Shown here one piece after another: positions 27,601 to 55,916 of a stretch of 64,000 nucleotides of DNA; position 1 is the stretch's first letter; each line of letters begins with the position of its first letter. Made by a program: the position numbers and the translations under genes. Below the pieces are notes generated by a model. That model had not been told where the DNA came from and searched no databases. It worked only from the letters and a program-made list of their open reading frames with translations. Location of the stretch: contig JBEKRC010000003.1 in NCBI GenBank assembly GCA_049997875.1, positions 183,885 through 247,884 on the forward strand, written 5' to 3'. Source of the stretch: Minisyncoccia bacterium (GTDB lineage: Bacteria > Patescibacteriota > Minisyncoccia > UBA6257 > 2-01-FULL-56-20).

Positions 27601-28602
27601 CTACAAGAAGTGAAGGATGAGCCTCACGAGCGCGAAGCATACGAGTCCGATTATGACAAGATACGGAACCAACTGGAACCTCCAGTCCGGCGTGGGTGGA
27701 AGCTTTTGCGTGCTGTAGGCCGCAAGGCGTTCGTTCCCGGCCTTGTCGATCGCCCGAACCTCGATCATGCCGTCAAGGTTCTGATTTCTAATAAGATAGG
27801 GACTTATAGCCCGGATCCAGTTCCACTGGCTCTCCGGCAGACCAAGATCCTTCGTCGGTACCTCGGCAACCTCGTAATGGTCCACGCCTGTCTGCTTGTC
27901 AACCGTGGAAAAGACGGCAAAAAGCTGACCGTCAAAGAGCATGGGGTTACGGTACACGCGCACCGCGAAGGGTTCCGGAGGAGTCGTATCGCTCTCAATC
28001 GCATTCTCCAGAGCGCTCAAGGGCGCGTATTCCCCCTTCAAGAGCTCGGTATAGGTCGCGCCGCCGAGAGAGAGCTTGGCCAACGTTCCCAAACCGTCGT
28101 TTAACACCGCTTCCGTCGTGCTTTCGAAGGCGAGACTTGCCGTGAGGGGTATGCTGCTTGACGTAATAGCGGTGGACGTTGGAAAACGGAAATAAATCGT
28201 GGCCAGTTTGTTGCTCAACGAGGGATCGCCCGCCACGCGGCCGCAGTATCCGCCGGGCAAGCCGCCCACAAAGGACACAAGGCCGTAATCCTCATAGATG
28301 GTCGGCTGCTTCACCCACAGCGAAAAGATGGAATTGCCATCGCCCACATCCACCGCGTCAAGGATGTTCTTCGGGTACGCGAGGTCAACCTCCGCGGCGT
28401 TCACGCACTGGCTCCCGTTGTCCAACCGGACGTCCACGCCGAAGGTCACGCCCGGAGGGAACTTCCCCGTCGCGGGATCAAGATAGATCTGGGCCGCATG
28501 CGCGAACCCCGTCCCCATCATGACGACCGCAGGAAAAAGAACGGCAAGAATCTTAATCTTCATCAAGGGCACCTTCATCATATCACAGGTCAGCCGGTCC
28601 AA
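27601..28602 (-). CDS. membrane-anchored surface protein with N-terminal cohesin-like domain
   Basis: Signal peptide; AQIYLDPATGKFPPGVTFGVDVRLDN...NSIFSLWV...LATIYFRF resembles the cohesin pattern; C-terminal TM helix (LVPYLVIIGLVCFALVRLILHFL). Confidence 0.5.
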   Translation of the reverse strand: MDRLTCDMMKVPLMKIKILAVLFPAVVMMGTGFAHAAQIYLDPATGKFPPGVTFGVDVRLDNGSQCVNAAEVDLAYPKNILDAVDVGDGNSIFSLWVKQPTIYEDYGLVSFVGGLPGGYCGRVAGDPSLSNKLATIYFRFPTSTAITSSSIPLTASLAFESTTEAVLNDGLGTLAKLSLGGATYTELLKGEYAPLSALENAIESDTTPPEPFAVRVYRNPMLFDGQLFAVFSTVDKQTGVDHYEVAEVPTKDLGLPESQWNWIRAISPYLIRNQNLDGMIEVRAIDKAGNERLAAYSTQKLPPTPDWRFQLVPYLVIIGLVCFALVRLILHFL

Positions 28603-29741
28603 TAGAAAAGCATGATGCTCAGGTCTTGAAGGCCGACTTTATGGTCGCCGCTCAGCTCGGCGGGCGGATAGTCCGTGCCCCAATAGTAAAGGAGGATCGA
28701 AAAATCGGCGAGATTGACCCTGCCATCGCCGTTCAGGTCCGCGAGGACCGCTTTCCCACGGCCATTGTTACCGACATAAAAAGAAATAGCTTGGCTCACC
28801 GTGCTGCGGGCGACGGCGCCGTTCTGCGTCGTGATAAAGTCGGCATCAACCGTGTGAAATGCATTATTATCGAGCGGCGCGGTATCTATCGCCATTTTCC
28901 AATTTCCTTCCTGATCGGTGCTCGTCGTAAGCACGATATTTTTCCCCGAGTGGACATAGGCTTCAACGGTGACGGACGGGACCGATTGTCCGGAAATCGT
29001 AAGCGCATCCCCCTGCTTCGCCTGCCGTTTGTCTATGGAGATGGTGGGCGGAAGAAATGCGCCCGACACCGTCGTCACCGCACCTGCCGTGATCGTAAAG
29101 GTCGTCGTAAACGCGATTGATTTCAAGCCCGACGAATCTTCTGCCCAAAAGCCGAAGGTGGTGGCGCCGGGCGAAACGTTGGTCGTTGAAAAGTAAAAGT
29201 TCGCGCTTGTGTCGGCCTGCACGATACCGATGAGCGCGCCGTCCTTCAAAATATTCACGCTCGCGCCCGGGTACGCCTCGCCACGCACTATCACCTGGGT
29301 CTGCTTCGGCGACGAGTAACTTCCGCCAGAATATCCGCCGCCGCCAGCCGGCGCAGACCCCGGCAACGGCGCGAGAGATTCAATCTGGCACGTGGCCGAG
29401 CAGCCGGAACCGGTCGTCCCGTTCAAAGCGCCGGCATCGCACTGCTCACCGTACTGCGGTTGGAGAATGTCGTCGCCGCAATAGGGCCCCCACCCGCTGC
29501 AATCCGGCAGGCAATTCCTCCCCGCCGTGGAGGTCGCGTAGAGCCCGCTGTCCACCCCGTCGTCGCATACCTCAATGGGCGGCGTCACGATGCCATCGCC
29601 ACAGACGCTGACTAAGATCGTTGTCGTCGCCGAGAGCGATTGGGCAAACGCCACGTGCGCGCATAGCCCGACGCCGAAAAAACCCAGGGATATAAAGGCC
29701 GCGAGCCGGCCATCACTTATTTGGCGAAGGGGGCGGTGCAT
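28590..29741 (-). CDS. secreted protein with Cys-rich (CGDG...CDDG) repeats and C-terminal dockerin-like domain
   Basis: Start set at the internal Met giving a classic signal peptide (MHRPLRQ...LGFFGVGLCAHVAFA/QS). CGDGIVTPPIEVCDDG motif. C-terminus ADLNGDGRVNLADFSILLYYWG...DLSIMLFYWTG is a duplicated dockerin Ca-binding loop. Confidence 0.6.
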   Translation of the reverse strand: MHRPLRQISDGRLAAFISLGFFGVGLCAHVAFAQSLSATTTILVSVCGDGIVTPPIEVCDDGVDSGLYATSTAGRNCLPDCSGWGPYCGDDILQPQYGEQCDAGALNGTTGSGCSATCQIESLAPLPGSAPAGGGGYSGGSYSSPKQTQVIVRGEAYPGASVNILKDGALIGIVQADTSANFYFSTTNVSPGATTFGFWAEDSSGLKSIAFTTTFTITAGAVTTVSGAFLPPTISIDKRQAKQGDALTISGQSVPSVTVEAYVHSGKNIVLTTSTDQEGNWKMAIDTAPLDNNAFHTVDADFITTQNGAVARSTVSQAISFYVGNNGRGKAVLADLNGDGRVNLADFSILLYYWGTDYPPAELSGDHKVGLQDLSIMLFYWTG

Positions 29742-30744
29742 ACACGCGATCGCGGTGACGGCTTGACCGCTTCTTTCGGATAAGCCGGCGGATGCCCCTA
29801 AGAACCCCGTACAGGAAAGCGAGAATAAGAACCGCAATGCCGAATGTTATCGCTTTTTCGTTCCATTTGAGGCCCCAGAAACCATATCCGCTGTAGCCCG
29901 TAAGGGTGCCGGGCGGCAAAACCGCGAGGTCAAGCATTCCCTGACCGATGACATCGCCATCGTCCTTCCCGTAGATCTTATAAAAGACACGGTAGCTGCC
30001 CTGGGGCAGATAGGTCGGCATCTCGGCGACGACCTCCTTCCTTTGAAAAGGCCGCACCGAATCAAGTCCGTTCGTATTTTCCTCGGTCTCAAGCGTCGTC
30101 CCGCTCAAATATTCGTCGTATTGAAATACCACCTTGTGCGGCGACCCGGGAATATTCCCCGTATTCTCCACGTCCATGGTGAACAGGACCTTTCCAGGAA
30201 AGTGCATCCACCAGAACGAGTGCCCTTCTTCGGTGTTCGTCATGGCCACGCGGTTAACTTTCAACTTCGCCATTCTGCTGTCGATAACCTGGAGGTCAAC
30301 GTCGATCTGGGCGCCGATCGTAATGCCGATTGTGCCCGACGTCGGGGGAGCAAGCGGGGAAACCACCACCCGGATATTTCCCACGTAGTGACCGAGTTTC
30401 GCGTCGCTTGGGACATTCACGCTCACGAGTATCGGGACTTGCTGCACTCCCGTCGGCATCGTGAACTGCGTCCCGCGGTCGATGGATATCCAACTGTCCG
30501 CCCCCGGCACGTCAATCGAAATATTCGCGCGAAGGTCTTGCGTCGGATTGCTGCGGACCAAAAGGATGGCTTGCTCATAATGGGAGTTTTGTACGAGCGA
30601 GCCGTTTGTCACGTACGGCGGCGTTATGCCGAACCCATCCGCGCGCACCGGCAAAGCCGCCCGCAGACACAAAACGAACATTGCGAACGCAATAAAAAGA
30701 AAAAGAGGCGCCTTTTCCCTCCACAACCCCGTCATCTTCCCCAT
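29713..30744 (-). CDS. surface protein, DUF916/CscA-like architecture (signal peptide, beta-rich ectodomain, C-terminal TM plus basic tail)
   Basis: Signal peptide; N-terminal FGITPPYVTNGSLVQNSHYEQAILLVRSNPTQDL (fsv.P..p.nq...v.v.N pattern); C-terminal TM FGIAVLILAFLYGVLRGIRRLIRKKR. Confidence 0.5.
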   Translation of the reverse strand: MGKMTGLWREKAPLFLFIAFAMFVLCLRAALPVRADGFGITPPYVTNGSLVQNSHYEQAILLVRSNPTQDLRANISIDVPGADSWISIDRGTQFTMPTGVQQVPILVSVNVPSDAKLGHYVGNIRVVVSPLAPPTSGTIGITIGAQIDVDLQVIDSRMAKLKVNRVAMTNTEEGHSFWWMHFPGKVLFTMDVENTGNIPGSPHKVVFQYDEYLSGTTLETEENTNGLDSVRPFQRKEVVAEMPTYLPQGSYRVFYKIYGKDDGDVIGQGMLDLAVLPPGTLTGYSGYGFWGLKWNEKAITFGIAVLILAFLYGVLRGIRRLIRKKRSSRHRDRVYAPPPSPNK

Positions 30745-30779: not shown

Positions 30780-32645
30780 TTACCAACTGGAAGGAGCGCT
30801 CCGCTGGGCAACGAACGTATTTTGGCCAGTGTAGTTGCCGGCGAGCAGAATCGAACTCGGGACCGAGATGCCCCAATAAGTTGCCCCTAAGGACGACGTT
30901 GCCGTTGATGTTGACTTGGGAATCTGGATGGCGAGCAACGCCCCGGGATTCACGAGCAACGCGGTGCCCGATGCATAGACCACACCGGAGGTGGCGTAGG
31001 TTATCTGCCCGACCGGGATGGTGGACGTCGTGGAAACCGGACAGCTCGGATAGGTAGTACACATCGAAGTGCCGTATAGCGTTTCGTTGAGGCCGAGATT
31101 GCCGAGTTCGGAGAGCGTCGTCGTCTGGGCCAAGGTCGGAGTCGTGGAGCCCGAAGACAGGGACCCGAAATTTATGCTCGGCGTATTGAGCTGCGAAGCA
31201 AGGAAGCTCAACACGGTACTGGTATTGGCGCTCGTGACGACCGTACTCGTCATGCCCACGTAATTCGTTGCCTGGACAGCCGCAGCCCAATTTTGATTGT
31301 AATACTGGGTGCTCGTCGCAGTGCCATCGGTGGGATCCGTGACGTACCAGAGCGGAAAGGTACAAGTCCATTGCGACGTGATTGAACTTGATCCAGCGCA
31401 CGAGCCGCCGTTCTGGGAACAGCTCCAATTCCATGTGGATGTGCCTATGGCCGCCGGATAACAATTGTTGGGATTGTAATTTCCGGATGACGAGCAATTC
31501 CCGAGGCCGATGCCAGAACGGAAAATGTCAATGCTCGCAGTCGCGACCTCTTGCCCGCCCACGGACGTCAAACAGCTGTTGTTGTCGGATGCCGTGAAGG
31601 TCACCTGGAAACCGGTCGTCTGCCCTCCCGGGTTTGTGAGCGAAAGCAGCGTGGTAGAACCGGTCGTGTTCAGCAAATTAATGCTGGACGATGCGATCGT
31701 CGGCGCAACCGCATTCACTGTTTCGGTTGCGTTCGTCCCCTGCGCGCCGCCGGAAGGAGGTACCAGAAACTGGTCAATGATGTAGCCATATGAGGAATAT
31801 CCGTTGTCCTGCGTTGGGATTGAAATGGTGGTCGTGCATGTGGGGTTGAGCGTGATGCCGGAGGTGGGCGAAGAGCAATATGTTCCACCAGGGCCGCAGG
31901 CCGTGCCCGTGAAGTCCGTCGCCTTGCAAACGAAAAGTTGGATGGTGGTAGTGGACCCCGTGAAGGTATCGCTGCTTGAGGCAGTGGCCGTCCACGTCAC
32001 GACGGCTCCCGGATTAGCCGGGGAATTGTTTGAGAACGCAGTGAACCGTGGACGGTGGTCCAAAACGAAAGGAGATGCCGTGTTCCCGCTTCCCTGCTGG
32101 TACGTGTTATTGCATCTCGGATTGAACGCGTTACCGTCGCAGATCCAAGCGAACCAAGCGTTGAACTGCGCGTCGGTTGATGACGGGGTATATGTTGACG
32201 TCGCATTGGTCCCGCTCGGGGTTGAGGTGGAAACCGCCCATTGGTTGCTCGCGCCCCCCCCGCAGGTCGGCGGGGCGCTGGCGTTCGCCGTCGGCGTGCT
32301 GCTTGATTTGCAAATCAAAAGATAGTAATTGTTCCCGTTCGGGCTTGTCCCTACCGCGACCCAGCTGATGGGAATCCCGACCACTGCCGGGCTGCTCGTC
32401 GTGTAGGGAGCAGCCTCCTGGGCGTTCACCGTCCAAAGCGGCGGCGTATTCAAAACCGTCAGGGTTGTCGTCGCGGTGCTCTGTGCCATTGCGAACCTTG
32501 CCGGACGCAAGGAACCAGTTGCCCAGAAGTTCACTGCGAGGATCGCGAAGGCCGTGAGCACGCCGAGCACGAGCACTAAAGCAGCAACCCGCCCGTGCGT
32601 ATCACGAAGGCACTCCTTAAGTTGCCGGGAATTGAAAAATTTCAT
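30780..32645 (-). CDS. giant secreted T/S/N-rich surface protein with conserved C-terminal module (class A)
   Basis: 621 aa with signal/TM at the N-term. The last ~120 aa (..NFGSLSSGSTTPTLA..LGNLGLNETLYGTSM..ATYWGISVP..GNYTGQNTFVAQRSAPSSW) are homologous to the C-terminus of the 36871..39432 product. Confidence 0.5.
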   Translation of the reverse strand: MKFFNSRQLKECLRDTHGRVAALVLVLGVLTAFAILAVNFWATGSLRPARFAMAQSTATTTLTVLNTPPLWTVNAQEAAPYTTSSPAVVGIPISWVAVGTSPNGNNYYLLICKSSSTPTANASAPPTCGGGASNQWAVSTSTPSGTNATSTYTPSSTDAQFNAWFAWICDGNAFNPRCNNTYQQGSGNTASPFVLDHRPRFTAFSNNSPANPGAVVTWTATASSSDTFTGSTTTIQLFVCKATDFTGTACGPGGTYCSSPTSGITLNPTCTTTISIPTQDNGYSSYGYIIDQFLVPPSGGAQGTNATETVNAVAPTIASSSINLLNTTGSTTLLSLTNPGGQTTGFQVTFTASDNNSCLTSVGGQEVATASIDIFRSGIGLGNCSSSGNYNPNNCYPAAIGTSTWNWSCSQNGGSCAGSSSITSQWTCTFPLWYVTDPTDGTATSTQYYNQNWAAAVQATNYVGMTSTVVTSANTSTVLSFLASQLNTPSINFGSLSSGSTTPTLAQTTTLSELGNLGLNETLYGTSMCTTYPSCPVSTTSTIPVGQITYATSGVVYASGTALLVNPGALLAIQIPKSTSTATSSLGATYWGISVPSSILLAGNYTGQNTFVAQRSAPSSW

Positions 32646-32830: not shown

Positions 32831-34033
32831 TTACTTGTACCTGATCGCCTCGAGCGGGCTAATAGACGATGCCCGTCGTGCAGGGAAAATGCCGGTAATA
32901 AAACCTACGATTGCCGAAAAAACAGTAATGAAACCCAAAAAAGTGAGCGGAAAACTGAAAAGCTGCACGGCCGTCCCCCCGTAATGCGCCGCAACAAGAT
33001 TGAGAATATAATTGATTATCAGCCCGCCGGCAATTCCCATGGACATCCCGACCATGCCGCCCAGAAATCCCACGACGACCGCCTCGGCAAGGAAAAGAAT
33101 CTGGATGTCCCCTGGCGAAGCGCCCAACGTTCTCATAACACCAATCTCGTTCGTTCGTTCGAGGAGCGTCACCGTCATTGTATTGAACATGCCGATGGCG
33201 GACACGACGAGCGCGATGCCGCCGAAGCAGGCCAGGACGATCTGCACCCCTTGGAAGATCTGGTTGGCCTGCTCCACGGTCTTCGAAAGCGCCGTCACAA
33301 TGAAACCCTGTTTTACAATCTCGTCCTGGATGGCGTTCAGCGCCCCGCTTCCCGTCGCGCGCACCTGGGCGCCATCATAGAATGGAATGCCTACCTGCGC
33401 CGCAAGGGTTGCGAGCGGAATCATAACGTAGATGGAGGAAACGTCGGTCGTCACCCCCTTCACCATAAAGCTCCCGTTCAGAACGACCTGGTCGGCCCCG
33501 GCGGCGTTGCTGGTTTGGACGAACACCCGGAACGTGACTGTCCTGCCCAGAATGTCGCGTGGATCGTTAATGCCGAAGAGTTTGAGAGCGGCGCTTGAGA
33601 GGATAACGCGCGTCTGATCGGCCGAGGCATCCGTAAAGGGTTCGCCCGCCGCCATCGCAATGCCGGCATACTTGAAATACGACGCGCGCACTCCTTGAAG
33701 ATCGGCATTCGCGCTCAACGCATCAATGGTAATGAGCGAGGAGAATTTGGCGAGCGGCGAAACATCCTGGACATTCGGGATGGTTTTGAAATTTTCTATT
33801 GCCGCATCCGTGAGCGTCACTGCCTGTGACGGCGGGTTGCTTACGCTCAGGCTTAACAGGGTGTCACCGAAAACAATTTTCTCAAGCAAGACGTTTTGTA
33901 GGCCGAAACCAAGTCCCACAAGCATGACGACGGCAGAGGTGCCGACGCCCATGCCGAGGATCGTAAGCCATGTCCTCGCAGGATTGGTCTTGAACATTCT
34001 CGTTGAAAGTTTTATGGCATCGCTTGCGCGCAT
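32831..34033 (-). CDS. MacB/FtsX-family ABC transporter permease
   Basis: 400 aa; N-terminal TM, large extracytoplasmic domain, C-terminal 3-TM FtsX module (RTNEIGVMRTLGAS motif). Confidence 0.85.
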   Translation of the reverse strand: MRASDAIKLSTRMFKTNPARTWLTILGMGVGTSAVVMLVGLGFGLQNVLLEKIVFGDTLLSLSVSNPPSQAVTLTDAAIENFKTIPNVQDVSPLAKFSSLITIDALSANADLQGVRASYFKYAGIAMAAGEPFTDASADQTRVILSSAALKLFGINDPRDILGRTVTFRVFVQTSNAAGADQVVLNGSFMVKGVTTDVSSIYVMIPLATLAAQVGIPFYDGAQVRATGSGALNAIQDEIVKQGFIVTALSKTVEQANQIFQGVQIVLACFGGIALVVSAIGMFNTMTVTLLERTNEIGVMRTLGASPGDIQILFLAEAVVVGFLGGMVGMSMGIAGGLIINYILNLVAAHYGGTAVQLFSFPLTFLGFITVFSAIVGFITGIFPARRASSISPLEAIRYK

Positions 34034-34035
34034 GG

Positions 34036-36845: not shown

Positions 36846-36870
36846 ATACCTATAGTCTATCAGAGTCTTC

Positions 36871-45339: not shown

Positions 45340-45738
45340 TCACGAATGTATGGCCGGGGCGGAGGGCAGATCGGGGTCTCCCGTTTTTTTATGGAAACGG
45401 CGCCAGTCAAGATAGAAGTTCAGGGCGACGAGGACCGCAAGGACCGCTACGGCAACCGTGAGATAGCCGAGGGAAGAATCCCCTGCCGGCGAACTCGCGG
45501 CCGCGGTTGTCGAAGCAAGCGCCGCTTCCTGCGCGTTGAGGTAGGCCGCTTTTTGGCTCAAGGCATCATTCAGGGTATTGTACGGGTTGGGCAGCACGCC
45601 CACGCTCACGCCAACCTGGGCCAAGAGCGTCTTCCCGAAGAACGCGAGCTTCACATGCGAAGCAGTAACAAAGACCACGAGACCCATGAGCACGATGAGC
45701 CCAAAGAGTCCCGCTTTTTTGATCGTCGGTTTAACCAA
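45340..45738 (-). CDS. small two-TM membrane protein (hypothetical; CscD-position analog)
   Basis: 132 aa, TM helices at both ends. Confidence 0.4.
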   Translation of the reverse strand: MVKPTIKKAGLFGLIVLMGLVVFVTASHVKLAFFGKTLLAQVGVSVGVLPNPYNTLNDALSQKAAYLNAQEAALASTTAAASSPAGDSSLGYLTVAVAVLAVLVALNFYLDWRRFHKKTGDPDLPSAPAIHS

Positions 45739-49492: not shown

Positions 49493-50453
49493 GGCGATGC
49501 GCGAGAATGCGGTTCAGGATGCTCATGCGCCGATGATGCCGCTTCTCGTATTGCCGGTGGATCCATGCCGCAAGCACGATTACGGCCGCAAGCAGTCCCA
49601 CGAAAACGACCGTGAGCTTTTGCCACGGGAGCACCCACACGAGCGCCACGTTTTGGAGCTTGTTCCCGGCGGCACCGTACGTGAGATCGAGCATCGCCTT
49701 ATACTGGCCGAAACCCTGCCCGCTTCCCCATTGAGCCGTGAAATTATGCGTTTCCCCGGGAGCAATCGCCACGTGCTCCGGATTCGCATCAACGGAGCCG
49801 ATCTCGCGGCCAAGCCGATCATAGAAGAGAACGAGGCCCGACGGCGTCGAGGCCACGTCCCCCGTGTTCTCGATCGCGTAGGCGAAGCTCACCGGAAACG
49901 CGGAGACGACCCGGCCCGTGGGCGCAAAGCTCGCGAGCGCAAGTTCCTCCTTCACGTTGGACTGCACCGTGAGGTCCACGAGCGCCTGGGGCGCACCATC
50001 AAGGTGCGTCTCCGCCTCGTCGCGCGTGGAACCTTCTACGAAAGCGATGACCGCATGGTACGTGCCGGCCGCGGCGTACGGATTGATGTTGATGGAAACC
50101 GGTATGGTCTTTGTCTCGCCCGGAGCGAGGGGCATCGCCCCGCGCGAGACGCTTATCCAATTTGCGAGCGAAACGGATTTTTCCGCAAGCGAGGAATCCA
50201 CGAGCGAAGGGTCCTCAAAGGCCTGCTTGCCATCCGCCGTCAGGTTGTACACGGACACAAAAACGTTTGCAAGGTGATCGTCGGTGTTTTTAGCGGTGAG
50301 CGTGTAGTTCAAAATGTCCCTCGGCAGGCCGTGGTCGTCAATCACGGCGGGAGTGACAACAAGGCCGGCAGCACGGACGAGCGCTGGAAACCAAAGAAGA
50401 CAAATCGCGCCCAAGCCCGCATAAAATATTTTCTTGTAAAAAAATTCGTTCAT
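49446..50453 (-). CDS. surface protein, DUF916/CscA-like architecture
   Basis: Signal peptide; LVVTPAVIDDHGLPRDILNYTLTAKNTDDHL; C-terminal TM VVFVGLLAAVIVLAAWIHRQYEKRHHRRM. Confidence 0.5.
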   Translation of the reverse strand: MNEFFYKKIFYAGLGAICLLWFPALVRAAGLVVTPAVIDDHGLPRDILNYTLTAKNTDDHLANVFVSVYNLTADGKQAFEDPSLVDSSLAEKSVSLANWISVSRGAMPLAPGETKTIPVSININPYAAAGTYHAVIAFVEGSTRDEAETHLDGAPQALVDLTVQSNVKEELALASFAPTGRVVSAFPVSFAYAIENTGDVASTPSGLVLFYDRLGREIGSVDANPEHVAIAPGETHNFTAQWGSGQGFGQYKAMLDLTYGAAGNKLQNVALVWVLPWQKLTVVFVGLLAAVIVLAAWIHRQYEKRHHRRMSILNRILAHRHVIDLRHPYDIHGRM

Positions 50454-51778
50454 TAGAATGTGGGAGCGACGACGTATGCGGTGTTATCGCTGTAGGAACC
50501 GGTGAGCTGCATGGGATTCGTCTGAACGCGATACACCATGTCCATCGTGCTGCCTGTTGTTGGCGCGCCGCTGTATCCTATCTCGGCGGTTGTCGTGGTA
50601 AATCCGGCGTAGGTGTCATCCGCTGCGAAACGCGTGGACCCGCTCGAGAGCACGGCGCTTCCGGCATGATATCCGTAGCACGCCGTGGAAGTGGAAGTGC
50701 ACGCGGTCCCCCACGCCTGCGGACTCGCGTTCGTGGCATTCAGGGCCGGCACCTTATCACCCTGCGCATCCGTGAGCGGCGCATCTTGGAACGCATAGAG
50801 TTCATACCCGAACGCGGCATTCGTCGTCACCGAAAGCCGCTGCGCACCCGTAAGACTCGAACCGACCGGCAAAGTTCCGAAGGGAATACCGGTGGGTGTC
50901 GCGGAAACGTTTGTTACGATGCCGTTCGTACTCGTCCCTTGGGGAAGACCGCTCACCGTGAACGTAAGCGCCGCTCCCTGTGTCACGAGGCTCGGATACG
51001 ACGACGTTCCGTTCAGGAGGACCGGCATCCCGTCCGCGGCGTTCACCGCGCGGAAAAAGTACGTGGTCCCGACAACGGCGCCCGAGTTCTGCATCGTGAA
51101 CTCGTACTCAGTTGCGGCGCCTGCCGCTTGGGTGGCGGTGGAAGTACTTGTACCCGATGTGTTGTGGGTACCGCAGCCGTTCCCAACGCCGCCACTGCAA
51201 GAATCCGAATCGGTCAGAATATTGGTCGAAATCAGCGTATTATCGGCACCCGCGCCCGAGGCATAACACCAACTTGACGTCGCGACGCAACTCCCGATCT
51301 CCGTCACATATCCTACCCCCGAGGAAAAATCCGACGCGAGCGAATATTGGAGCCGGAACTTCACGTTATCGCTTCCCGCAAGACTGCTTGTTTCCTTGAT
51401 CGTGAGCCGCAGCTTCAGCGGTTCCCCGTTCGCGATGTTCGTGGGCGCCGTGCTTTGGGCGGCGAGCGAGCTTGTCGGCGTCTCGTCATTCACGTCGCCG
51501 TACCATTCCCACGCCTGCGACATTGGGGAGAATTCCGTGTCGTTCGCCGGACCCGTGTTGGACATGAATCCCGTGCCCGCCGCGTCGCCGTTCGTGATGG
51601 CGGAGCCGCCCTGGACCATCTGGAAGTCCGTGGATGACGAATACCCTCCGAAGGAACCTAGGTAGGAATCCTCTATCATGAAATGCGTGCTCGAGACCGT
51701 ATCGGCGGCGGACCAGAACGGCAGCACCGAAATGGCGACGAGGATCACTATGGTAAACACCGCGAATGCGCGCTCCAT
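50453..51778 (-). CDS. secreted T/S-rich surface protein with class-B C-terminal module
   Basis: Signal peptide; C-terminus FGTLPVGSSLTGAQRLSVTTNAAFGYEL...SPQAWG...YSDNTAYVVAPTF is homologous to the 46909..48060 C-terminus. Confidence 0.5.
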   Translation of the reverse strand: MERAFAVFTIVILVAISVLPFWSAADTVSSTHFMIEDSYLGSFGGYSSSTDFQMVQGGSAITNGDAAGTGFMSNTGPANDTEFSPMSQAWEWYGDVNDETPTSSLAAQSTAPTNIANGEPLKLRLTIKETSSLAGSDNVKFRLQYSLASDFSSGVGYVTEIGSCVATSSWCYASGAGADNTLISTNILTDSDSCSGGVGNGCGTHNTSGTSTSTATQAAGAATEYEFTMQNSGAVVGTTYFFRAVNAADGMPVLLNGTSSYPSLVTQGAALTFTVSGLPQGTSTNGIVTNVSATPTGIPFGTLPVGSSLTGAQRLSVTTNAAFGYELYAFQDAPLTDAQGDKVPALNATNASPQAWGTACTSTSTACYGYHAGSAVLSSGSTRFAADDTYAGFTTTTAEIGYSGAPTTGSTMDMVYRVQTNPMQLTGSYSDNTAYVVAPTF

Positions 51779-51779: not shown

Positions 51780-52286
51780 TTATTGGCTTGTCTGTGACTG
51801 CTCGATCGTCTTCACGATGACGCTGTCGCTCCGCAGGGTCTCCCAAAACATTATCTGCGAGAGCGGAACCACCATCTCGCTCGTAGGTCCATGGATCTCG
51901 TTCCCGAGCTTCACAAGCTTGAGCTGCGACTGGTCCTCGCCGTTCAACTGTTCACTCGGCTGCGCAATCTGAAGATAGTACACGTCGCGCAACGTGATCG
52001 TTGCGGCGAAGGGCCAATGCTGGAAATGCCCGAAGTAGACCTGATTGTTCGTGAGGAACACCGCACGCCATGCCGTGTCGTGGGCGGTGGCATACCATGC
52101 GCCGAGCGCAATGACGAGCGCGATAATTGCAATGACGACGACCGTGTTTCTCTTGTTCCATCGCGATTTCAGGCGCGGTTCGGAAACAACGTTCTCGTTT
52201 TCTTCCCGAAGATTGAGGGTGCTAGGCATAAAATTTGATGATAAAAATTTACGGCGACCTTTACGGCGCGGTGCCGGCTGCGGCAT
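51780..52286 (-). CDS. small single-TM membrane protein (hypothetical)
   Basis: 168 aa; basic N-terminus, one TM (VVVIAIIALVIALGAWY), extracytoplasmic C-terminal domain. Confidence 0.4.
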   Translation of the reverse strand: MPQPAPRRKGRRKFLSSNFMPSTLNLREENENVVSEPRLKSRWNKRNTVVVIAIIALVIALGAWYATAHDTAWRAVFLTNNQVYFGHFQHWPFAATITLRDVYYLQIAQPSEQLNGEDQSQLKLVKLGNEIHGPTSEMVVPLSQIMFWETLRSDSVIVKTIEQSQTSQ

Positions 52287-53553
52287 CGGACGAAGTAGCG
52301 CCGGGTGAGACCGCGTCGGGCGTGGGCGTAACGGACGCCGCGGAAGTGCTGCCTGGAGTGTCGCTTGTGGACGAGGCGCCCGCGTTCACGCTCGCATCCG
52401 CACCCGTGTCCGTTCCCGCATTCATGTTCGCACCGGTGTTTGCATCCGTACTCGTGCCCGTGTCGGCGCTCGCGCTCGCACTGGTATTTGCGCCCGCACC
52501 GACACTGCTCGTCGCAACGCTTCCGATGTCCGCGCTGTCCGTTGTGCTCGTGGTCGTGTCGGAGACAGTCGCATCAGAGGTGGTCGCATCATTCGATGCG
52601 CCCACAGTGTCCGTATCTCCATCGCCTGCCGCCGCATTGCCGGCCGCCGCAGCACTCATTGTGGTAACGTCCGGCGTCCCGCCCCCGAACGCGACCGGCA
52701 TCGATTGCTCCACAACGGTCGACGACCCAGCGGCATAAGTGCTGATGATAAGCCACGAGAAAGACACGGGGATGGATTGTGACCGGACCGTACCGACATG
52801 GAAGCCCGCGCCGTCGCTCCTCTGCGTCACCGCAAGCGGGACTTCGGTGGGCGAAGTAGGCGTTACGATAACCTCCGAAGAAGAAGTGAGGAGGGTGTTA
52901 GGTACGAAAACATCTGTCACTCCGGCGCCGATCTCTCCATCTCCCGACATCTGATTCGCCCCTTTCGGCACGGCAATTGAGCCGCCGGGAAGCACCGCGA
53001 ACATCTTTGAGAAAATCTGCATGGCTGCCACGACGGACGTCTTCACTGCGTCCACGGCCGAGGTCACGATCCCGAAGAACTGCTGCAGCACCGAATCAAG
53101 CCAAGAGTCGTCGCTCGGCGGGGCGGCGGCGAGGGAAGAAGTGTCCATGGTGACCGTAACGTCAGTCAATGGGATAGGCGTAGAGAAGACAACCGTCGCG
53201 GAGGCCGTCGATGGGGATGTTATGGCTGCTGTCGCGCTCCCCGGCACCGTCCCGCCATCCACGGCGTCGACGACGAACGTCCCTCCCATCCGATCGCCCG
53301 CGGGCACCGTGATAGCGTATGCGTAAGAACCGTTCACACAGCTCGGATTGCTGCTTCCCCAAATGGAACCGTCGGACGTGCGGCGGATAACAACGAGCAC
53401 GAACCGCGCGGAGCAATTCCCGGAAACGGAGAGTTTCCCCGTTCCGGGATCAAAGACGACGTTGCTGCTCGCCGCGCGCGCCGCGCTCCCCCACGCAAGC
53501 AAGGCGAGGGAGATAACGCCGACGAAACTTACAAAAAAATATCTTTTGTTCAT
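52261..53553 (-). CDS. secreted low-complexity T/S/A/D-rich protein (hypothetical)
   Basis: Signal peptide; extreme compositional bias in the C-terminal half. Confidence 0.4.
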   Translation of the reverse strand: MNKRYFFVSFVGVISLALLAWGSAARAASSNVVFDPGTGKLSVSGNCSARFVLVVIRRTSDGSIWGSSNPSCVNGSYAYAITVPAGDRMGGTFVVDAVDGGTVPGSATAAITSPSTASATVVFSTPIPLTDVTVTMDTSSLAAAPPSDDSWLDSVLQQFFGIVTSAVDAVKTSVVAAMQIFSKMFAVLPGGSIAVPKGANQMSGDGEIGAGVTDVFVPNTLLTSSSEVIVTPTSPTEVPLAVTQRSDGAGFHVGTVRSQSIPVSFSWLIISTYAAGSSTVVEQSMPVAFGGGTPDVTTMSAAAAGNAAAGDGDTDTVGASNDATTSDATVSDTTTSTTDSADIGSVATSSVGAGANTSASASADTGTSTDANTGANMNAGTDTGADASVNAGASSTSDTPGSTSAASVTPTPDAVSPGATSSDAAAGTAP

Positions 53554-53558
53554 GGTCG

Positions 53559-55916
53559 TTAATCGTGGCTGCTAAAATAGACGTACGCGATCCTGTGAAC
53601 GGCGGCGGTCCCCGTAAGCGTGGTAACCGCATCCGTGATGCCGAGCTGCGTTGCCCCCGTTGCGATGTTCGTCGTCTTCGGCGTAGTTACATAGCTCCCC
53701 CCGTTCGTCGCAACCTGGCACAACATCTGCCCGGCCGTCGACATATCAAGAATGATGTCGTAGTAGGTGCTTGTCGTAACCGTCACACCGGTATTCGTAT
53801 AGCTTGCGGTCGTCCCGTCCCCTGAACCGCACTGCCAAGTCGTATCTCCCGCGCTGGTGGAATAGCGAAGACCAAAGAATACCGTTGACGTCGCGCCGGC
53901 AGCGACATCAGATCCCGTAATCGCAGCCGAGTTCAGCGCGACCCAGATGCGCCGGCTCGTAATGGTGGTATCGGTCCTGATCCTTGTCGCGAACCGCGGC
54001 GTATAGCGCGGTTGGGTCTGATTGAATGTCTGCGTCAATCCCCCTACGGAACCGTTCGATGCGGCGCTTGTCCATTGCACATAATAATCCTCCGCCTGCG
54101 CACTGGCCGCAGCGGTGCCGTTCACGGTAGGAATCCCCATATCAACCGCGGTGAACACCGTGGCCGCCGTACCGGTCGGCGCCCAATATCCCCACTGATT
54201 GGTACCGAAGTCCTGTTGCCACCCTATAGGGGTCGGGATGCAGTTCGTCCAGGCACCCCCTTGGTAACAACGGAAGCTTCCCGTGCTTGAGCTGTAATAC
54301 ATCGCGCCGTTGAAGCCGGTCGGGTCCCCGGCATCGGATTTCACGTCAAGCCCCAAAAGCGTCGGGACAGATCCGGCCGCCCCGTTCCGCCCGATCTTTA
54401 TCTTGTTGTTCAGCGTATCGGCGGCAAGAAGCGTTATCGTCCCGCTCGCATTCTGCAAAGCAAACGTGGTGGACGTATCGCTGGAGGGAAGAAAAACCGC
54501 ATTCCCGACGCTGTTAACATAGAAAACCGTGGATGACGCATCGTTCACTTGAATGGCGTTCCCGGAGCCAAAGTTACTCACGATCAATGCGGCCCCCGAG
54601 ACGTTCGCACCCGCAGTGATCGCGACCGTGCTCGTCGCCTGCGTTGAGGTCGGGGCGTTCACGATGGAAAGCGCTATGCCGGTTCCGTTCTGGCTCAATG
54701 TTAATCCCGTTGAAGCCGCATTTTGCACGATAGACATCCCCGCGGTCACGGACGGCGCGTTCAGCGTTTTATTGTTCAATGTCTGCGAGTAGTTCACGAG
54801 CGCCACCGTGTCCGTTGCCGTGGCGAAGTTCGGGATCGTGAGCGCCCCGACGACCGTCGGGTTCCAACTCAACGTCCCGGTCGCGCCCGTTCCCTGGAAG
54901 ACAAATTGGCTGGAGGTCGCCGTGGCCTGCAACATGCTCGCCGTCACGCGGTTTGCGATCGTGAGTATGCCGGACGAGGCGATCGTATTGCTCGCGGAGA
55001 AGAACTGTATTGCGCCCGTGCCCGTCCCGCCCTGCAGCGTAAGCGTGTTCGTTCCGGTCGCATTGATCTGCGGGTTCGCATCGCCGAGGACGAGGGCCCC
55101 CGAGGCGAGCACCGGTATCTCCGTGCCCGTCGCATTCTGCGACGGCGCGAATCCTCCCACCGTCGCCGCGTTGATGGCATACCCGGACGCCACGATCCGC
55201 TCGCGCGGGCTCAAGGCCTCAAACGTCGCGTTCGTGCAGCTTGAACTCACTTGCGCCGCCACTTCCACGTTCAGATACGCCGTGTCGTTGCTCTGAAAAT
55301 TGAAGGTCAACGGATCCCCTCCCGCGCTTACGTCACCCACGCCGACATCAAAGACGCCGTTCGCCACGGTAGCGGTCATCGCGGAGGCGGTGGTGCTCGG
55401 CCAGAGCTTGGTGCCCCCCGAAAGAGAATCATAAATGGAGAAACGGAAGCAGTATGGCGTACCCGATCCCCCCAAAAGATTGCCATTGGAGTCAAAAAGC
55501 CTGCCTTGATAGCTCAGGACGAGAGGTACCCCCGTGGCCGCCTTAGCAATCGCGATGGTGATAAAGGCGTATATGAGGAACGCAATAAAAAGGAAAAGGA
55601 GTACTACAAGGACATAAATGATCCTTCTCGCAAGGCGCAATATCGCCTCGGTTGATGAGTTAGCAACCCACCAGGTTCGAAGCTTTTCCCGCACCCATTC
55701 CTTAAAGGCAGGGATTGCGCGTTCCGCCCCGCTTTTCGCCATATATTCCCGAATGGCCTCCTCGGTCGTCACCCAAGCCACATTCAGGTAGATCTGTTTG
55801 CCCTGCAATTTCCCCTTCCGGATAAGCTGACCCAAATAATCCGGCGCATAGCCCGAAAGCTTCGCCGCTTCCTTAAGAGTGATATATTTAACCCCTTTGT
55901 CGTGTCTTATAGCCAT
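53559..55916 (-). CDS. 785-aa protein: N-terminal excisionase-type HTH, single TM, large extracellular T/S/N/G-rich beta-repeat domain
   Basis: VKYITLKEAAKLSGYAPDYLGQLIRKGKLQGKQI (HTH_17-like, same type as the 20171 protein). TM IIYVLVVLLFLFIAFLIYAFITIAIA. ~640 aa of G/T/S/N-rich repeats (TGTNTLTLQGGTGTGAIQF...). Confidence 0.55.
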   Translation of the reverse strand: MAIRHDKGVKYITLKEAAKLSGYAPDYLGQLIRKGKLQGKQIYLNVAWVTTEEAIREYMAKSGAERAIPAFKEWVREKLRTWWVANSSTEAILRLARRIIYVLVVLLFLFIAFLIYAFITIAIAKAATGVPLVLSYQGRLFDSNGNLLGGSGTPYCFRFSIYDSLSGGTKLWPSTTASAMTATVANGVFDVGVGDVSAGGDPLTFNFQSNDTAYLNVEVAAQVSSSCTNATFEALSPRERIVASGYAINAATVGGFAPSQNATGTEIPVLASGALVLGDANPQINATGTNTLTLQGGTGTGAIQFFSASNTIASSGILTIANRVTASMLQATATSSQFVFQGTGATGTLSWNPTVVGALTIPNFATATDTVALVNYSQTLNNKTLNAPSVTAGMSIVQNAASTGLTLSQNGTGIALSIVNAPTSTQATSTVAITAGANVSGAALIVSNFGSGNAIQVNDASSTVFYVNSVGNAVFLPSSDTSTTFALQNASGTITLLAADTLNNKIKIGRNGAAGSVPTLLGLDVKSDAGDPTGFNGAMYYSSSTGSFRCYQGGAWTNCIPTPIGWQQDFGTNQWGYWAPTGTAATVFTAVDMGIPTVNGTAAASAQAEDYYVQWTSAASNGSVGGLTQTFNQTQPRYTPRFATRIRTDTTITSRRIWVALNSAAITGSDVAAGATSTVFFGLRYSTSAGDTTWQCGSGDGTTASYTNTGVTVTTSTYYDIILDMSTAGQMLCQVATNGGSYVTTPKTTNIATGATQLGITDAVTTLTGTAAVHRIAYVYFSSHD

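What the first reader, a model, noticed from the sequence alone, without database searches (positions are those of the whole stretch)
27601..55916. 28-kb co-directional cell-surface locus with three repeated Csc/WxL-like modules
Twenty-two consecutive minus-strand genes encode secreted or membrane-anchored proteins. The triad recurs three times (30780+29713; 46909+45731+45340; 51780+50453+49446+48245). Its first member is a giant T/S-rich secreted protein ending in a conserved C-terminal module. Class A is ...LGNxxLNxTLYGTxM...YWGxSxP...YTGxNTF...; class B is FGTxxxG...VTTNAxxG...W[GT]...YxxNxxYVxAPxF. The second member is one or two proteins with a signal peptide, a beta-rich ectodomain starting with a (F/I)xVxPxxxxxxV..G.....V.V.N pattern, and a C-terminal TM plus an RRYVRR-type basic tail. 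The third is a small TM protein. This gene order and these architectures mirror the csc (cell-surface complex) clusters of Lactobacillales: CscC WxL, CscA/B DUF916-DUF3324, CscD small anchored protein. The sequences here are highly divergent and the organism looks like a small-genome, possibly CPR-like, bacterium. If the match is real, this extends a Firmicutes surface-display system to a new lineage; otherwise it defines a new family set. Either way it is a candidate host-attachment or episymbiosis apparatus.
Basis: partly seen in the sequence, partly recalled or inferred. Interest (0 to 1): 0.85.

Follow-up and report, generated by a model that had tools for sequence, protein, structure and literature searches.

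The report
WxLIP-like surface-anchor locus in a CPR bacterium
A conserved 28-kb block of cell-surface genes in an ultra-small (CPR/Paceibacteria) bacterium repeatedly pairs a secreted protein with a membrane-anchored true relative of the "WxL-interacting protein" of lactic acid bacteria, but the secreted partners are a new family, not recognisable WxL proteins.

Summary
There are 21 co-directional minus-strand genes (not 22), and 19 have an N-terminal signal or anchor segment.

The four "signal peptide, two beta domains, C-terminal TM" proteins are true homologues of Firmicute WxLIP (DUF916+DUF3324+TM):
- Profile against PDB EfmWxLIP1: E=6e-9.
- hhalign against three Firmicute WxLIPs: 98%, E=2e-13, across both domains.
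- The top Foldseek PDB hits of the AlphaFold model are the E. faecium WxLIP crystal structures.

The partner proteins (class A and class B C-terminal modules) are not demonstrably WxL:
- There is no PF13731 hit.
- hhalign gives P=0.0015-0.03, with only co-linear motif-level resemblance.
- The solved long-WxL chain is absent from the listed structural hits.
- The class B model instead resembles beta-sandwich subunits of donor-strand-exchange fibres (TLP-1b, TasA) and BslA/YweA.

In 60 of 68 loci across many CPR lineages, the gene directly upstream of the WxLIP-like gene ends in ...aG-Y-x-D-T-L-T-[FY]-x-x-T-G-x-F-COOH. The small "third member" proteins are not homologous to each other, and none has an LPXTG motif. 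The locus also holds two cohesin/dockerin pairs and a MacB-type ABC transporter.

Best reading: a non-covalent, membrane-tethered surface-display system, a new variant of the WxLIP kind.

The parts
53559..55916 (-). First gene of the block. N-terminal HTH-like cytoplasmic segment, one TM (residues 99-117), then a ~660-aa beta-rich S/T/G/A ectodomain. Possible fibre or adhesin.
   Evidence: Translation. TM. PF12728 at E=0.023. Weak NCBIfam Bdello_MAT_N hit at E=6e-4, below cut-off. An orthologue heads the syntenic loci L001 and L003. A promoter-like site lies at 55983-55954 on the minus strand (not above shuffles).
52261..53553 (-). Secreted protein with a structured N-terminal part and a long S/T/A/D-rich tail.
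   Evidence: No Pfam or NCBIfam hit.
51780..52286 (-). Small N-terminally anchored membrane protein (168 aa).
   Evidence: TM at 48-66. No similarity to 45340. A 142-156 aa gene sits at the same position in L001 and L003.
50453..51778 (-). Partner protein, class B (441 aa). Signal peptide and a C-terminal class B domain ending ...YSDNTAYVVAPTF-COOH.
   Evidence: blastp to 46909 at E=2e-11. Member of alignment A2. Orthologues lie directly upstream of WxLIP-like genes in L001, L003 and L008-L013.
49446..50453 (-). WxLIP-like protein (335 aa). Signal peptide, two beta-sandwich domains, C-terminal TM and basic tail.
   Evidence: blastp to 45731 and 48245 at E=1e-20 to 1e-23. Member of A1. TM at 280-298.
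48245..49492 (-). WxLIP-like protein (415 aa) with a second C-terminal TM helix.
   Evidence: PF06030 at E=0.012. 35% identity to 45731. TMs at 303-321 and 393-411.
46909..48060 (-). Partner protein, class B (383 aa). N-terminal signal/anchor, an Ig-like N domain, and a ~190-aa C-terminal domain ending ...NDYTNNLIYVATPVF-COOH.
45731..46828 (-). WxLIP-like protein (365 aa). This is the one modelled.
   Evidence: PF06030 at E=2.4e-4. 36 of 52 family members hit PF06030. Profile vs PDB 9i25_C/9i1y_A at E=6e-9. Model pLDDT 89. Top Foldseek hits are the E. faecium WxLIP structures at E=2e-13. hhalign vs Firmicute WxLIP gives 98%.
45340..45738 (-). Small protein with two TM segments (132 aa). No LPXTG motif.
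   Evidence: A 123-138 aa gene sits at the same position in L001 and L003.
43631..45319 (-). Secreted protein with a class-B-type N domain, an FN3-like region, Big_13 and a C-terminal dockerin.
   Evidence: PF00404 at 28.4 bits, above the 22.9 cut-off, and PF19077. blastp to 28590 at E=2e-37 and to the 46909 N-terminus at E=4e-12.
43001..43579 (-). Hsp20/alpha-crystallin-like protein with no signal peptide.
   Evidence: PF00011 at E=5e-4, just below cut-off. Conserved at this position in L001 and L003, where the precomputed Pfam hit is HSP20.
41217..43004 (-). Cohesin, Ig-like domains (Big_13), a TM helix and a cytoplasmic coiled-coil tail. A membrane-anchored scaffold for the dockerin protein.
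   Evidence: PF00963 at 46.8 bits, above the 24.1 cut-off. TM at 477-495. Paralogue of 27601.
39482..41359 (-). N-terminally anchored protein with long low-complexity linkers and a C-terminal beta domain.
   Evidence: No Pfam hit. Orthologues of 584-639 aa in L001 and L003.
36871..39432 (-). Large partner protein, class A (853 aa). DUF2341, a LamG-like lectin domain, a Cys-rich Ig-like domain and the class A terminal domain.
   Evidence: PF13385 at E=2e-14 and PF10102 at E=5e-8. blastp to 30780 at E=2e-34.
35352..36899 (-). N-terminally anchored protein with four FN3-type repeats.
   Evidence: PF16656 and PF00041. TM at 23-41.
34036..35346 (-). ABC transporter ATPase with a ~200-aa C-terminal extension.
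   Evidence: PF00005 at E=1e-30.
32831..34033 (-). MacB/FtsX-type permease with an extracytoplasmic MacB_PCD domain.
   Evidence: PF12704 at E=1e-18 and PF02687 at E=5e-14.
30780..32645 (-). Partner protein, class A (621 aa). S/T-rich passenger plus the class A C-terminal module (...YWGISVP...GNYTGQNTF...).
   Evidence: The class A module occurs in 402 representative clusters, C-terminal in nearly all the complete proteins listed. Consensus. Class A terminal domain vs the broad CPR partner profile: hhalign 46%, P=2e-4, 125 columns.
29713..30744 (-). Divergent WxLIP-like protein (343 aa).
   Evidence: blastp to 48245, 49446 and 45731 at E=2e-6 to 3e-4. Orthologues in L094 and L096 hit the WxLIP-like HMM at E=1e-26 to 1e-31 and sit directly after a class A gene.
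28590..29837 (-). Secreted protein with DUF4215-like Cys repeats, Big_6 and a C-terminal dockerin. The true start is probably downstream of 29837.
   Evidence: PF17936 at E=1e-7. PF00404 at 16.9 bits, below cut-off. Paralogue of 43631.
27601..28602 (-). Cohesin domain protein with a C-terminal TM anchor. Last gene of the block.
   Evidence: PF00963 at 24.1 bits, equal to the cut-off. TM at 315-333. Paralogue of 41217.

Best explanation
The block is a conserved chromosomal cell-surface locus of a Paceibacteria (CPR/Patescibacteria) bacterium.

**The recurring unit.** It is a gene pair.
- The first gene encodes a secreted protein. Its variable N-terminal 'passenger' (Ig-like, LamG lectin or S/T-rich) is followed by a conserved beta-sandwich terminal domain. 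That domain stops exactly at the C-terminus in the strand ...aG-x-Y-x-x-x-L-x-[YF]-x-x-[TP]-x-F.
- The second gene encodes a membrane-anchored protein with two Ig-like domains. It is a true homologue of the Firmicute WxL-interacting protein (WxLIP: DUF916, DUF3324, TM helix).

**Proposed mechanism (inferred).** I reason by analogy with the WxLIP-WxL complex. AlphaFold2 predicts there that a WxLIP strand inserts into WxL (PMC10599100), and the two proteins have been co-crystallised (PDB 9i25). The WxLIP-like protein would hold its partner on the outer face of the cytoplasmic membrane. It would do so by inserting a beta-strand (the conserved, lower-confidence loop at residues 141-160 of 45731) into the partner's terminal domain. 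In other words, it acts as a tethered chaperone or anchor through strand complementation.

Three such modules (four WxLIP-like, four partners) and two membrane-cohesin/dockerin pairs would together display a set of binding domains on the cell. This plausibly serves attachment to a host cell or substrate. The MacB-type ABC transporter in the middle may assist export or release.

**Shown:** the homology of the anchor, the paralogy, the topology, and the conserved adjacency.
**Inferred:** the physical interaction, the strand insertion, and the biological role.
For: **WxLIP homology.**
- 36 of 52 family members hit PF06030, best E=1.5e-11.
- The family profile hits PDB EfmWxLIP1 (9i25_C, 9i1y_A) at E=6e-9.
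- hhalign against three Firmicute DUF916+DUF3324 proteins gives 98%, E=2e-13, over 236 columns spanning both domains.
- The AlphaFold model (pLDDT 89; two beta-sandwiches plus a TM helix) has the WxLIP crystal structures as its top three PDB matches (E=2e-13, 262 columns). Chaperone-usher chaperones come next at E~1e-9.

**Pairing.**
- The same gene order holds over the whole 28 kb in Paceibacteria genomes at about 60-65% identity.
- In 80 loci from Paceibacteria, Sung-, Harrison-, Kaiser-, Doudna-, Uhr-, Berkel-, Gracili-, Peri- and Moranbacteria, 60 of 68 with enough upstream DNA have an ORF ending in the C-terminal motif directly upstream of the WxLIP-like gene. The background rate in other ORFs is 19 of 1244.
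- Firmicute loci share this order: a small WxL directly upstream of WxLIP in 6 of 7.

**Partner architecture parallels small and large WxL proteins.** The terminal domain is C-terminal in nearly all the complete proteins listed, behind passengers of 0 to about 2000 aa.

**Loop 141-160 of 45731.** It has pLDDT 74-75 between blocks of 97-98. It is nevertheless invariant or near-invariant among close relatives at G152, G154, G156, Y157, V159 and G160. That pattern fits a segment that orders on binding.

**Topology and cohesin/dockerin:**
Against: - No physical interaction was tested.
- The partner is not a detectable WxL domain, so transferring the WxLIP-WxL mechanism rests on homology of one side only.
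- The Firmicute NQIDKxxxYFDLK motif of the PGBD is absent from the CPR proteins; it is a gap in the hhalign alignment.
- The class B domain is modelled confidently as a complete fold on its own, so an open strand-accepting groove has not been shown.
- The C-terminal motif regex was written after seeing the data.
- Host attachment is purely inferential.
Confidence: 0.6

Rival explanations
1. One reading: a true WxL/Csc cluster. On this view the class A and class B terminal domains are extremely divergent WxL domains. They would bind peptidoglycan non-covalently and be stabilised by WxLIP, as in Lactobacillales.
For: - WxLIP homology is solid.
- The gene order matches Firmicute loci.
- With a relaxed alignment, three motifs line up co-linearly between the CPR partner profile and true WxL. 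These are 'x-F-G' after the first strand; T-N-A-x-N-G-[FYW]-x-[VL] against D-x-R-G-x-x-x-G-W-x-L; and Y-x-D-T-L-T-[FY]-x-V against Y-x-x-x-[IL]-T-[WYF]-x-L.
- Some true WxL proteins also carry Y or F in place of the second Trp.
- The hhalign score is 25-28, against about 13 for reversed profiles and 12-19 for unrelated beta domains of the same locus.
Against: - No PF13731 hit at E<=1 in 41 class B proteins. One E=4.4 hit among 10 diverse partners.
- No true-WxL HMM hit in any of 83 CPR loci.
- hhalign probability is only 2-17% (P=0.0015-0.03), dominated by one short motif.
- The same C-terminal strand motif also aligns to the Csu pilus protein CsuE (E=0.26), so it may be a generic last-strand signature.
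- No LPXTG protein is present.
Confidence: 0.25
2. A pilus or fibre system. The partners would polymerise by donor-strand exchange, as TasA, TLP-1 or archaic chaperone-usher pilins do. The WxLIP-like proteins would act as membrane-tethered chaperones or base anchors. This would be a usher-less, monoderm version of the chaperone-subunit pathway.
For: - After WxLIP itself, the WxLIP-like model matches CfaA, FimC, CsuC and PapD chaperones (E~1e-9, target-normalised TM 0.5-0.59).
- The class B model matches DSE fibre subunits TLP-2, TasA, Pyrobaculum pilin and CsuA/B.
- The partner ends in a conserved strand with a free C-terminal aromatic residue. From my own knowledge of chaperone-usher pilins, their C-terminal strand is the one bound by the chaperone.
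- Small Gracilibacteria and Peribacteria partners consist of a signal peptide, a ~40-aa conserved N-terminal extension and one domain.
- Class B genes are tandemly duplicated in L001.
Against: - No usher, sortase or dedicated signal peptidase is present in the locus.
- Partner N-termini in the window are modelled as part of a folded Ig-like domain, not as a free extension.
- Many partners carry huge passengers, which suits display better than polymerisation.
- The fold scores are modest and typical of many beta-sandwiches.
Confidence: 0.12
3. No specific system. On this view the locus is just a run of unrelated Ig-like envelope proteins, and the resemblance to WxLIP reflects the common Ig/E-set fold.
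For: - Many Ig-like families give weak cross-hits (fn3_5, NPCBM_assoc, CARDB).
- TM-scores to WxLIP are low (0.37-0.49) because the domain orientation differs.
Against: - Profile E-values of 6e-9 and 2e-13 across two domains plus the shared TM architecture are well beyond fold-level similarity.
- Adjacency to the motif-bearing partner is near universal across deeply divergent CPR classes.
- The whole 28-kb order is conserved.
Confidence: 0.03

Closest known systems
WxL-interacting protein (WxLIP; CscA; DUF916/PF06030 + DUF3324/PF11797 + TM) of Lactobacillales and Bacillales; solved structures PDB 9i1y and 9i25
   Same: - Signal peptide, two tandem Ig-like beta-sandwich domains in the same order, and a C-terminal TM helix with a basic tail.
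- Size is 335-415 aa, against 337-365 aa in Firmicutes.
- Homologous by profile (E=6e-9), by profile-profile comparison (98%) and by fold (top PDB hit).
- Encoded directly downstream of a secreted beta-rich partner.
   Different: - Found in CPR/Patescibacteria rather than Firmicutes.
- The window's own proteins fall below the Pfam gathering score (21.5 against 27.3 bits).
- PF11797 is recognised directly in only 1 of 52 members.
- The conserved NQIDKxxxYFDLK segment is missing.
- Two paralogues have a second TM helix.
- The partner is not a Pfam WxL protein.
WxL domain proteins (PF13731; CscB/CscC; small and large WxL)
   Same: - A beta-rich domain at the C-terminus of the protein.
- Small forms (domain only) and large forms (variable adhesin-like passengers).
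- Gene directly upstream of the WxLIP gene.
- Three motifs line up co-linearly, including a terminal Y-x-x-x-L-T-aromatic-x-aliphatic strand.
   Different: - No statistically significant sequence match.
- The Trp-x-Leu pairs are mostly replaced by [FY]-x-[VA].
- The D-x-R pair before the first motif is replaced by T-N-A.
- The CPR domain ends in a free aromatic residue rather than ...D-x-P.
- No listed structural match to 9i25_A.
- Peptidoglycan binding is unknown.
Chaperone-usher pilus chaperones and subunits (PapD/FimC/CsuC/CfaA; CsuA/B, CsuE) and other donor-strand-exchange fibres (TasA; TLP-1 fibrils of PMC11494351)
   Same: - A two-Ig-domain 'chaperone-like' protein paired with a beta-sandwich subunit whose conserved last strand is at the C-terminus.
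- Strand complementation is the proposed contact.
   Different: - There is no usher and, I assume for a CPR bacterium, no outer membrane.
- The chaperone-like protein is membrane-tethered.
- Polymerisation has not been shown.
- Similarity is at fold level only.
Cohesin-dockerin surface anchoring (cellulosome-type modules outside cellulosomes)
   Same: - Two TM-anchored cohesin proteins are each encoded next to a dockerin-bearing secreted protein.
- The dockerin has the duplicated Ca-binding repeat (DLNGDGRVNLADFSILL...).
   Different: - No glycoside hydrolase modules on the dockerin proteins.
- The cohesin is anchored by its own TM helix rather than by SLH or sortase.
- The pairs are embedded in the WxLIP-like locus.

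Membership tests
WxLIP (DUF916-DUF3324-TM) | N-terminal signal peptide | tested here: met
   An N-terminal hydrophobic segment is present in all four proteins. The model shows a helix at residues 5-24.
WxLIP (DUF916-DUF3324-TM) | PGBD / DUF916 domain (PF06030) | tested here: met
   The window proteins are below the gathering score (21.5 and 16.1 bits against 27.3). However, 36 of 52 family members hit PF06030, best E=1.5e-11. The family profile hits EfmWxLIP1 in PDB at E=6e-9.
WxLIP (DUF916-DUF3324-TM) | HBD / DUF3324 domain directly after the PGBD | tested here: met
   The hhalign alignment to Firmicute WxLIPs runs through both domains (236 columns, 98%). Foldseek aligns 262 columns to 9i1y and 9i25_C. 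The PF11797 HMM itself is hit by only 1 of 52 members.
WxLIP (DUF916-DUF3324-TM) | C-terminal transmembrane helix | tested here: met
WxLIP (DUF916-DUF3324-TM) | Conserved NQIDKxxxYFDLK segment near the N-terminus (PMC10599100) | tested here: not met
   This segment is an 11-residue gap in the CPR profile in the hhalign alignment.
WxL domain (PF13731) | Match to the family HMM | tested here: not met
   A true-WxL HMM built from 27 PF13731 proteins finds nothing in 83 CPR loci.
WxL domain (PF13731) | Two Trp-x-Leu motifs on the C-terminal domain | tested here: not met
   The motif positions align co-linearly but read G-[FYW]-x-[VL] and [YF]-x-[VAT]. Trp is rare at these positions.
WxL domain (PF13731) | Profile-profile or structural similarity to true WxL | tested here: inconclusive
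WxL domain (PF13731) | Domain located at the C-terminus of the protein | tested here: met
WxL domain (PF13731) | Non-covalent peptidoglycan binding | not testable with these tools
   This requires a biochemical experiment.
WxL/Csc gene cluster (at least 1 WxLIP and at least 2 WxL within 4 genes; PMC10599100) | At least one WxLIP | tested here: met
   Four WxLIP-like genes are present.
WxL/Csc gene cluster (at least 1 WxLIP and at least 2 WxL within 4 genes; PMC10599100) | At least two WxL proteins nearby | tested here: not met
   No PF13731 protein is present. Analogous partners (50453, 46909, 30780, 36871) occupy the positions.
WxL/Csc gene cluster (at least 1 WxLIP and at least 2 WxL within 4 genes; PMC10599100) | Small LPXTG-anchored protein (CscD; common, not obligatory) | tested here: not met
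   No LPXTG-like motif lies near any C-terminus of a surface protein in the block. The two small TM proteins are unrelated to each other.
Chaperone-usher pilus system | Outer-membrane usher | tested here: not met
   No usher-type domain appears in any gene of the block.
Chaperone-usher pilus system | Two-domain Ig-like chaperone | tested here: inconclusive
   Fold-level matches to CfaA, FimC, CsuC and PapD at E~1e-9, ranking after WxLIP. There is no sequence evidence.
Cohesin-dockerin pair | Cohesin domain (PF00963) | tested here: met
   41217 scores 46.8 bits. 27601 scores 24.1 bits, equal to the cut-off.
Cohesin-dockerin pair | Dockerin domain (PF00404) on a neighbouring secreted protein | tested here: met
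   43631 scores 28.4 bits, above 22.9. 28590 scores 16.9 bits, below cut-off, but is 33% identical to 43631 through the dockerin.
Donor-strand-exchange fibre subunits (TasA / TLP-1 / archaeal bundling pilin) | Fold similarity of the subunit domain | tested here: inconclusive
Donor-strand-exchange fibre subunits (TasA / TLP-1 / archaeal bundling pilin) | N-terminal donor strand and polymerisation | not tested
   No oligomer model was possible.

The most novel reading that the evidence does not exclude
The WxLIP-like/partner gene pair is a CPR-wide, usher-less 'tethered chaperone plus strand-accepting subunit' machinery. It would be the monoderm counterpart of chaperone-usher assembly and the evolutionary sister of the Firmicute WxLIP-WxL system. 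It would build either a membrane-anchored protein coat or donor-strand-exchange fibres on ultra-small bacteria. On this reading it is a main structural basis of their episymbiotic attachment. It could also be a source of uncharacterised fibrils seen in 0.22-um-filtered natural waters.
Probability: 0.2. Interest if true: 0.85.

Novelty: new variant of a known kind. Interest (0 to 1): 0.6.

Why it matters
WxL/WxLIP systems are described as almost confined to Lactobacillales and Bacillales (PMC9772566, PMC10599100). Full-text searches found no paper that links WxL to CPR bacteria, and the one paper holding both 'DUF916' and 'Candidate Phyla Radiation' is an unrelated review.

This work shows that the anchor half of that system is present, multiplied and syntenically conserved across many classes of CPR/Patescibacteria. 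It is always coupled to a partner family that has no Pfam model.

CPR bacteria live attached to other cells, and very little is known about their surface proteins beyond type IV pili. This gives a concrete, testable candidate for how they hold binding modules (LamG lectin, Ig-like, FN3) on a cell with a minimal envelope.

It also gives structural biologists a second, deeply divergent example of WxLIP-type strand complementation. That should help separate what is essential in that mechanism from what is lineage-specific.

Tried and rejected
1. **Single-sequence phmmer against PDB.** Searches with 45731 and 46909 gave only noise.
2. **Class B profile against PDB sequences.** Zero hits at E<=10. 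The broad partner profile gave only CsuE at E=0.26.
3. **Pfam on class B members and diverse partners.** Nothing usable. NCBIfam on ten locus proteins gave only two weak sub-threshold hits.
4. **Making the WxL link significant.** I widened both profiles: 99 CPR partner C-termini, then 27 plus 11 true WxL proteins including large WxL and plasmid-borne ones. Probability rose only from 2% to 17%. Block-shuffling showed the score comes from one motif.
5. **PMC12537917.** It mentions WxLIP but only in a gene-neighbourhood remark.
6. **PMC10936435.** It reports highly expressed 'PGBD' proteins in Paceibacteria. The supplement shows this is the PG_binding_1 type (PDB 1lbu), unrelated to WxLIP_PGBD.
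7. **The search for related loci.** A4 and the single protein 29713 worked.
8. **Other scans.** Rfam and tRNA scans of the window found nothing. Promoter and terminator scans were not above shuffled expectation.

Full report
**What is there.** The window has about 57% G+C. From 55916 down to 27601 it carries 21 closely packed minus-strand ORFs. The block is chromosomal. It is flanked by an RRM-type RNA-binding protein gene, RmuC, FtsZ and FtsA on one side, and by an HhH-GPD glycosylase, a GH18 and two GH130 genes on the other. A hydropathy scan finds an N-terminal hydrophobic segment in 19 of the 21 products. The exceptions are an ABC ATPase and an Hsp20-like protein. All close homologues come from Candidatus Paceibacterota/Parcubacteria MAGs, now placed in the phylum Minisyncoccota, that is CPR/Patescibacteria. 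They include assemblies with contigs of 0.88-0.91 Mb, one of them recorded as a chromosome. The window's own 45731 protein occurs on 16 metagenome contigs.

**Check of the observation.**
- Four 'signal peptide, beta ectodomain, C-terminal TM, basic tail' proteins: 29713, 45731, 48245 and 49446, with E-values down to 5e-56.
- Two proteins sharing a 300-aa class A C-terminal module: 30780 and 36871, E=2e-34.
- Two proteins sharing a 200-aa class B C-terminal domain: 46909 and 50453, E=2e-11.

The quoted motifs are conserved in wider alignments and are not low complexity. Four corrections apply.
- There are 21 genes, not 22.
- The proteins are 383-853 aa, not giant.
- The small 'third members' (45340, 51780) are unrelated to each other, and none is present in module 1.

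The larger repeated unit is therefore: partner, WxLIP-like, (small TM protein), dockerin protein, (Hsp20-like), cohesin anchor.

**The membrane-anchored member is a true WxLIP homologue.**
- On their own, the window proteins reach only sub-threshold PF06030 scores, E=2.4e-4 and 0.012.
- The family (96 relatives, all CPR) resolves this. 36 of 52 aligned members hit PF06030, best E=1.5e-11.
- The family profile finds the solved E. faecium WxLIP1 chains 9i25_C and 9i1y_A at E=6e-9.
- hhalign against three plasmid-borne Firmicute 'DUF916 and DUF3324 domain-containing' proteins gives 98% probability and E=2e-13 over 236 columns covering both domains.
- The AlphaFold model of 45731 (pLDDT 89) has two beta-sandwich domains and a long TM helix.
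- Its three best PDB matches are the WxLIP crystal structures (E=2e-13, about 262 columns). Chaperone-usher pilus chaperones follow at E~1e-9.

There are differences from the Firmicute family. The NQIDKxxxYFDLK segment is absent. PF11797 is seldom recognised directly. Two paralogues have a second TM helix.

**The secreted partners are not demonstrably WxL.**
- The class B family has more than 500 homologues, none with any Pfam domain.
- PF13731 is not hit at E<=1 in 41 members. Among ten diverse CPR partners it is hit once, at E=4.4.
- I built true WxL profiles from 27 PF13731 proteins and then added 11 more from Firmicute plasmid loci.
- hhalign gave P=0.028 (class B), P=0.005 and 0.0025 (broad CPR partner profiles) and at best P=0.0015, a probability of 17%.
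- With a relaxed alignment, three motifs line up in order. These are the FG after the first strand, TNAxNG[FYW]x[VL] against DxRGxxxGWxL, and the terminal YxDTLT[FY]xV against Yxxx[IL]T[WYF]xL.
- Reversed profiles score about 13 against 25-28 for the real comparison. Block-shuffling shows that the score is carried by one motif.
- The same terminal strand also aligns weakly to the Csu pilus protein CsuE.
- The solved long-WxL chain 9i25_A (identified) is not among the listed matches.

I therefore treat WxL membership as not met. Remote homology remains possible, at about one chance in four.

The terminal ~155 residues of class A are probably a divergent member of the same partner superfamily (hhalign 46%, P=2e-4, 125 columns). 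The class A module occurs in 402 representative clusters. It is C-terminal in nearly all the complete proteins listed, behind passengers of up to about 2000 aa.

**The pairing is conserved.**
- Paceibacteria genomes at about 60-65% identity keep the whole gene order. Module 1 with the ABC transporter is also kept in two metagenome contigs.
- A genome-wide scan returned 80 loci. They come from Paceibacteria, Sung-, Harrison-, Kaiser-, Doudna-, Uhr-, Berkel-, Gracili-, Peri- and Moranbacteria, plus some MAGs labelled otherwise.
- In 60 of the 68 loci with at least 1 kb upstream, the ORF directly upstream of the WxLIP-like gene ends in the C-terminal motif. The rate among other ORFs is 19 of 1244. 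Several of the eight 'misses' carry visible motif variants.
- The regex was written after seeing the data, but the contrast is very large.
- In Gracilibacteria and Peribacteria the partners are only about 210-240 aa, matching the 'small WxL' architecture.
- Firmicute loci share the order: a small WxL directly upstream of WxLIP in 6 of 7 loci read.

**How it most likely works.** For WxLIP and WxL, AlphaFold2 predicts that a WxLIP loop becomes a strand completing the WxL beta-sandwich (PMC10599100). A crystal structure of WxLIP bound to long WxL now exists (9i25). I infer that the CPR WxLIP-like proteins tether their upstream-encoded partners to the membrane in the same way. Three observations are consistent with this.
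- The loop at 141-160 of 45731 has lower confidence (pLDDT 74-75) yet is nearly invariant among close relatives.
- The partner's strictly C-terminal conserved strand ends in a free aromatic residue.
- The fold on the two sides resembles chaperones and strand-accepting subunits respectively.

The two TM-cohesin/dockerin pairs supply a second non-covalent anchoring principle in the same locus. Passengers such as LamG/DUF2341, Ig-like and FN3 modules suggest binding functions. The role of the MacB-type ABC transporter is unknown. The interaction, the strand insertion and the role in attachment are inferred, not shown.

**Rivals.**
- A true, extremely divergent WxL/Csc system (0.25).
- A donor-strand-exchange fibre system with a tethered chaperone (0.12).
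- A mere run of Ig-like proteins (0.03), which the profile statistics and the synteny largely exclude.

**Novelty.** Full-text searches found no paper that links WxL to CPR/Patescibacteria. The one paper holding both 'DUF916' and 'Candidate Phyla Radiation' is an unrelated review. A lead from a Paceibacteria transcriptome paper turned out to concern a different peptidoglycan-binding domain. I rate the finding as a new variant of a known kind: the WxLIP anchor in a new phylum-level lineage, coupled to a new partner family. Interest is moderate to high (0.6). It would be higher if the tethered-chaperone or fibre reading were confirmed.

Noticed in passing
window 27601-28602 with 28590-29837, and 41217-43004 with 43631-45319 (minus strand): Two adjacent gene pairs, each a membrane-anchored cohesin protein next to a secreted Big-domain protein with a C-terminal dockerin. 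The pairs are conserved in related genomes.
   Followed up: partly
window 53559-55916 (minus strand): The first gene of the block combines a cytoplasmic HTH-like N-terminus, one TM helix and a 660-aa beta-rich ectodomain. The start of the ectodomain gives a weak, sub-threshold hit to the Bdellovibrio 'mosaic adhesive trimer' fibre N-domain (NCBIfam NF053851, E=6e-4). It may be a trimeric surface fibre.
   Followed up: partly
window 56368-56706 (plus strand), within the 55917-57072 gap: A 112-aa RRM-type RNA-binding protein with a Gly-rich tail lies in the 1.15-kb intergenic region upstream of the locus. That region sits in the window's lowest-G+C bin (47% for 56001-58000). Promoter-like sites occur there on both strands.
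   Followed up: no
window 43001-43579 (minus strand): An Hsp20/alpha-crystallin-like protein without a signal peptide sits between the dockerin and cohesin genes. It is conserved at that position in L001 and L003. Its role in a surface-protein operon is unexplained.
   Followed up: no
window 32831-35346 (minus strand): A MacB/FtsX-type permease and its ABC ATPase lie in the middle of the surface-protein block. The ATPase carries a ~200-aa helical C-terminal extension with no family match. The pair is conserved next to the class A gene in L094 and L096.
   Followed up: partly
protein P0092 (homologue of 45731): One distant family member fuses a LysM peptidoglycan-binding domain to the DUF916-like domain. 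This hints at a cell-wall association for the family.
   Followed up: no
L001 7541-9944: The class B partner gene is tandemly duplicated (two 378-aa copies) in a related 0.91-Mb Paceibacteria contig. The window has a single copy at that position.
   Followed up: no
window 39460-39476 and 48182-48197: Terminator-like hairpins lie in the short gaps after the 39482 gene and after the 48245 gene. They may be internal attenuators that split the block into sub-operons. The number of such sites is not above shuffled expectation.
   Followed up: no
window 21759-26134 (minus strand): Immediately downstream of the block are two GH130 (mannoside phosphorylase-type) genes and a secreted GH18 chitinase-like gene. 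These are glycan-processing enzymes next to the surface locus.
   Followed up: no
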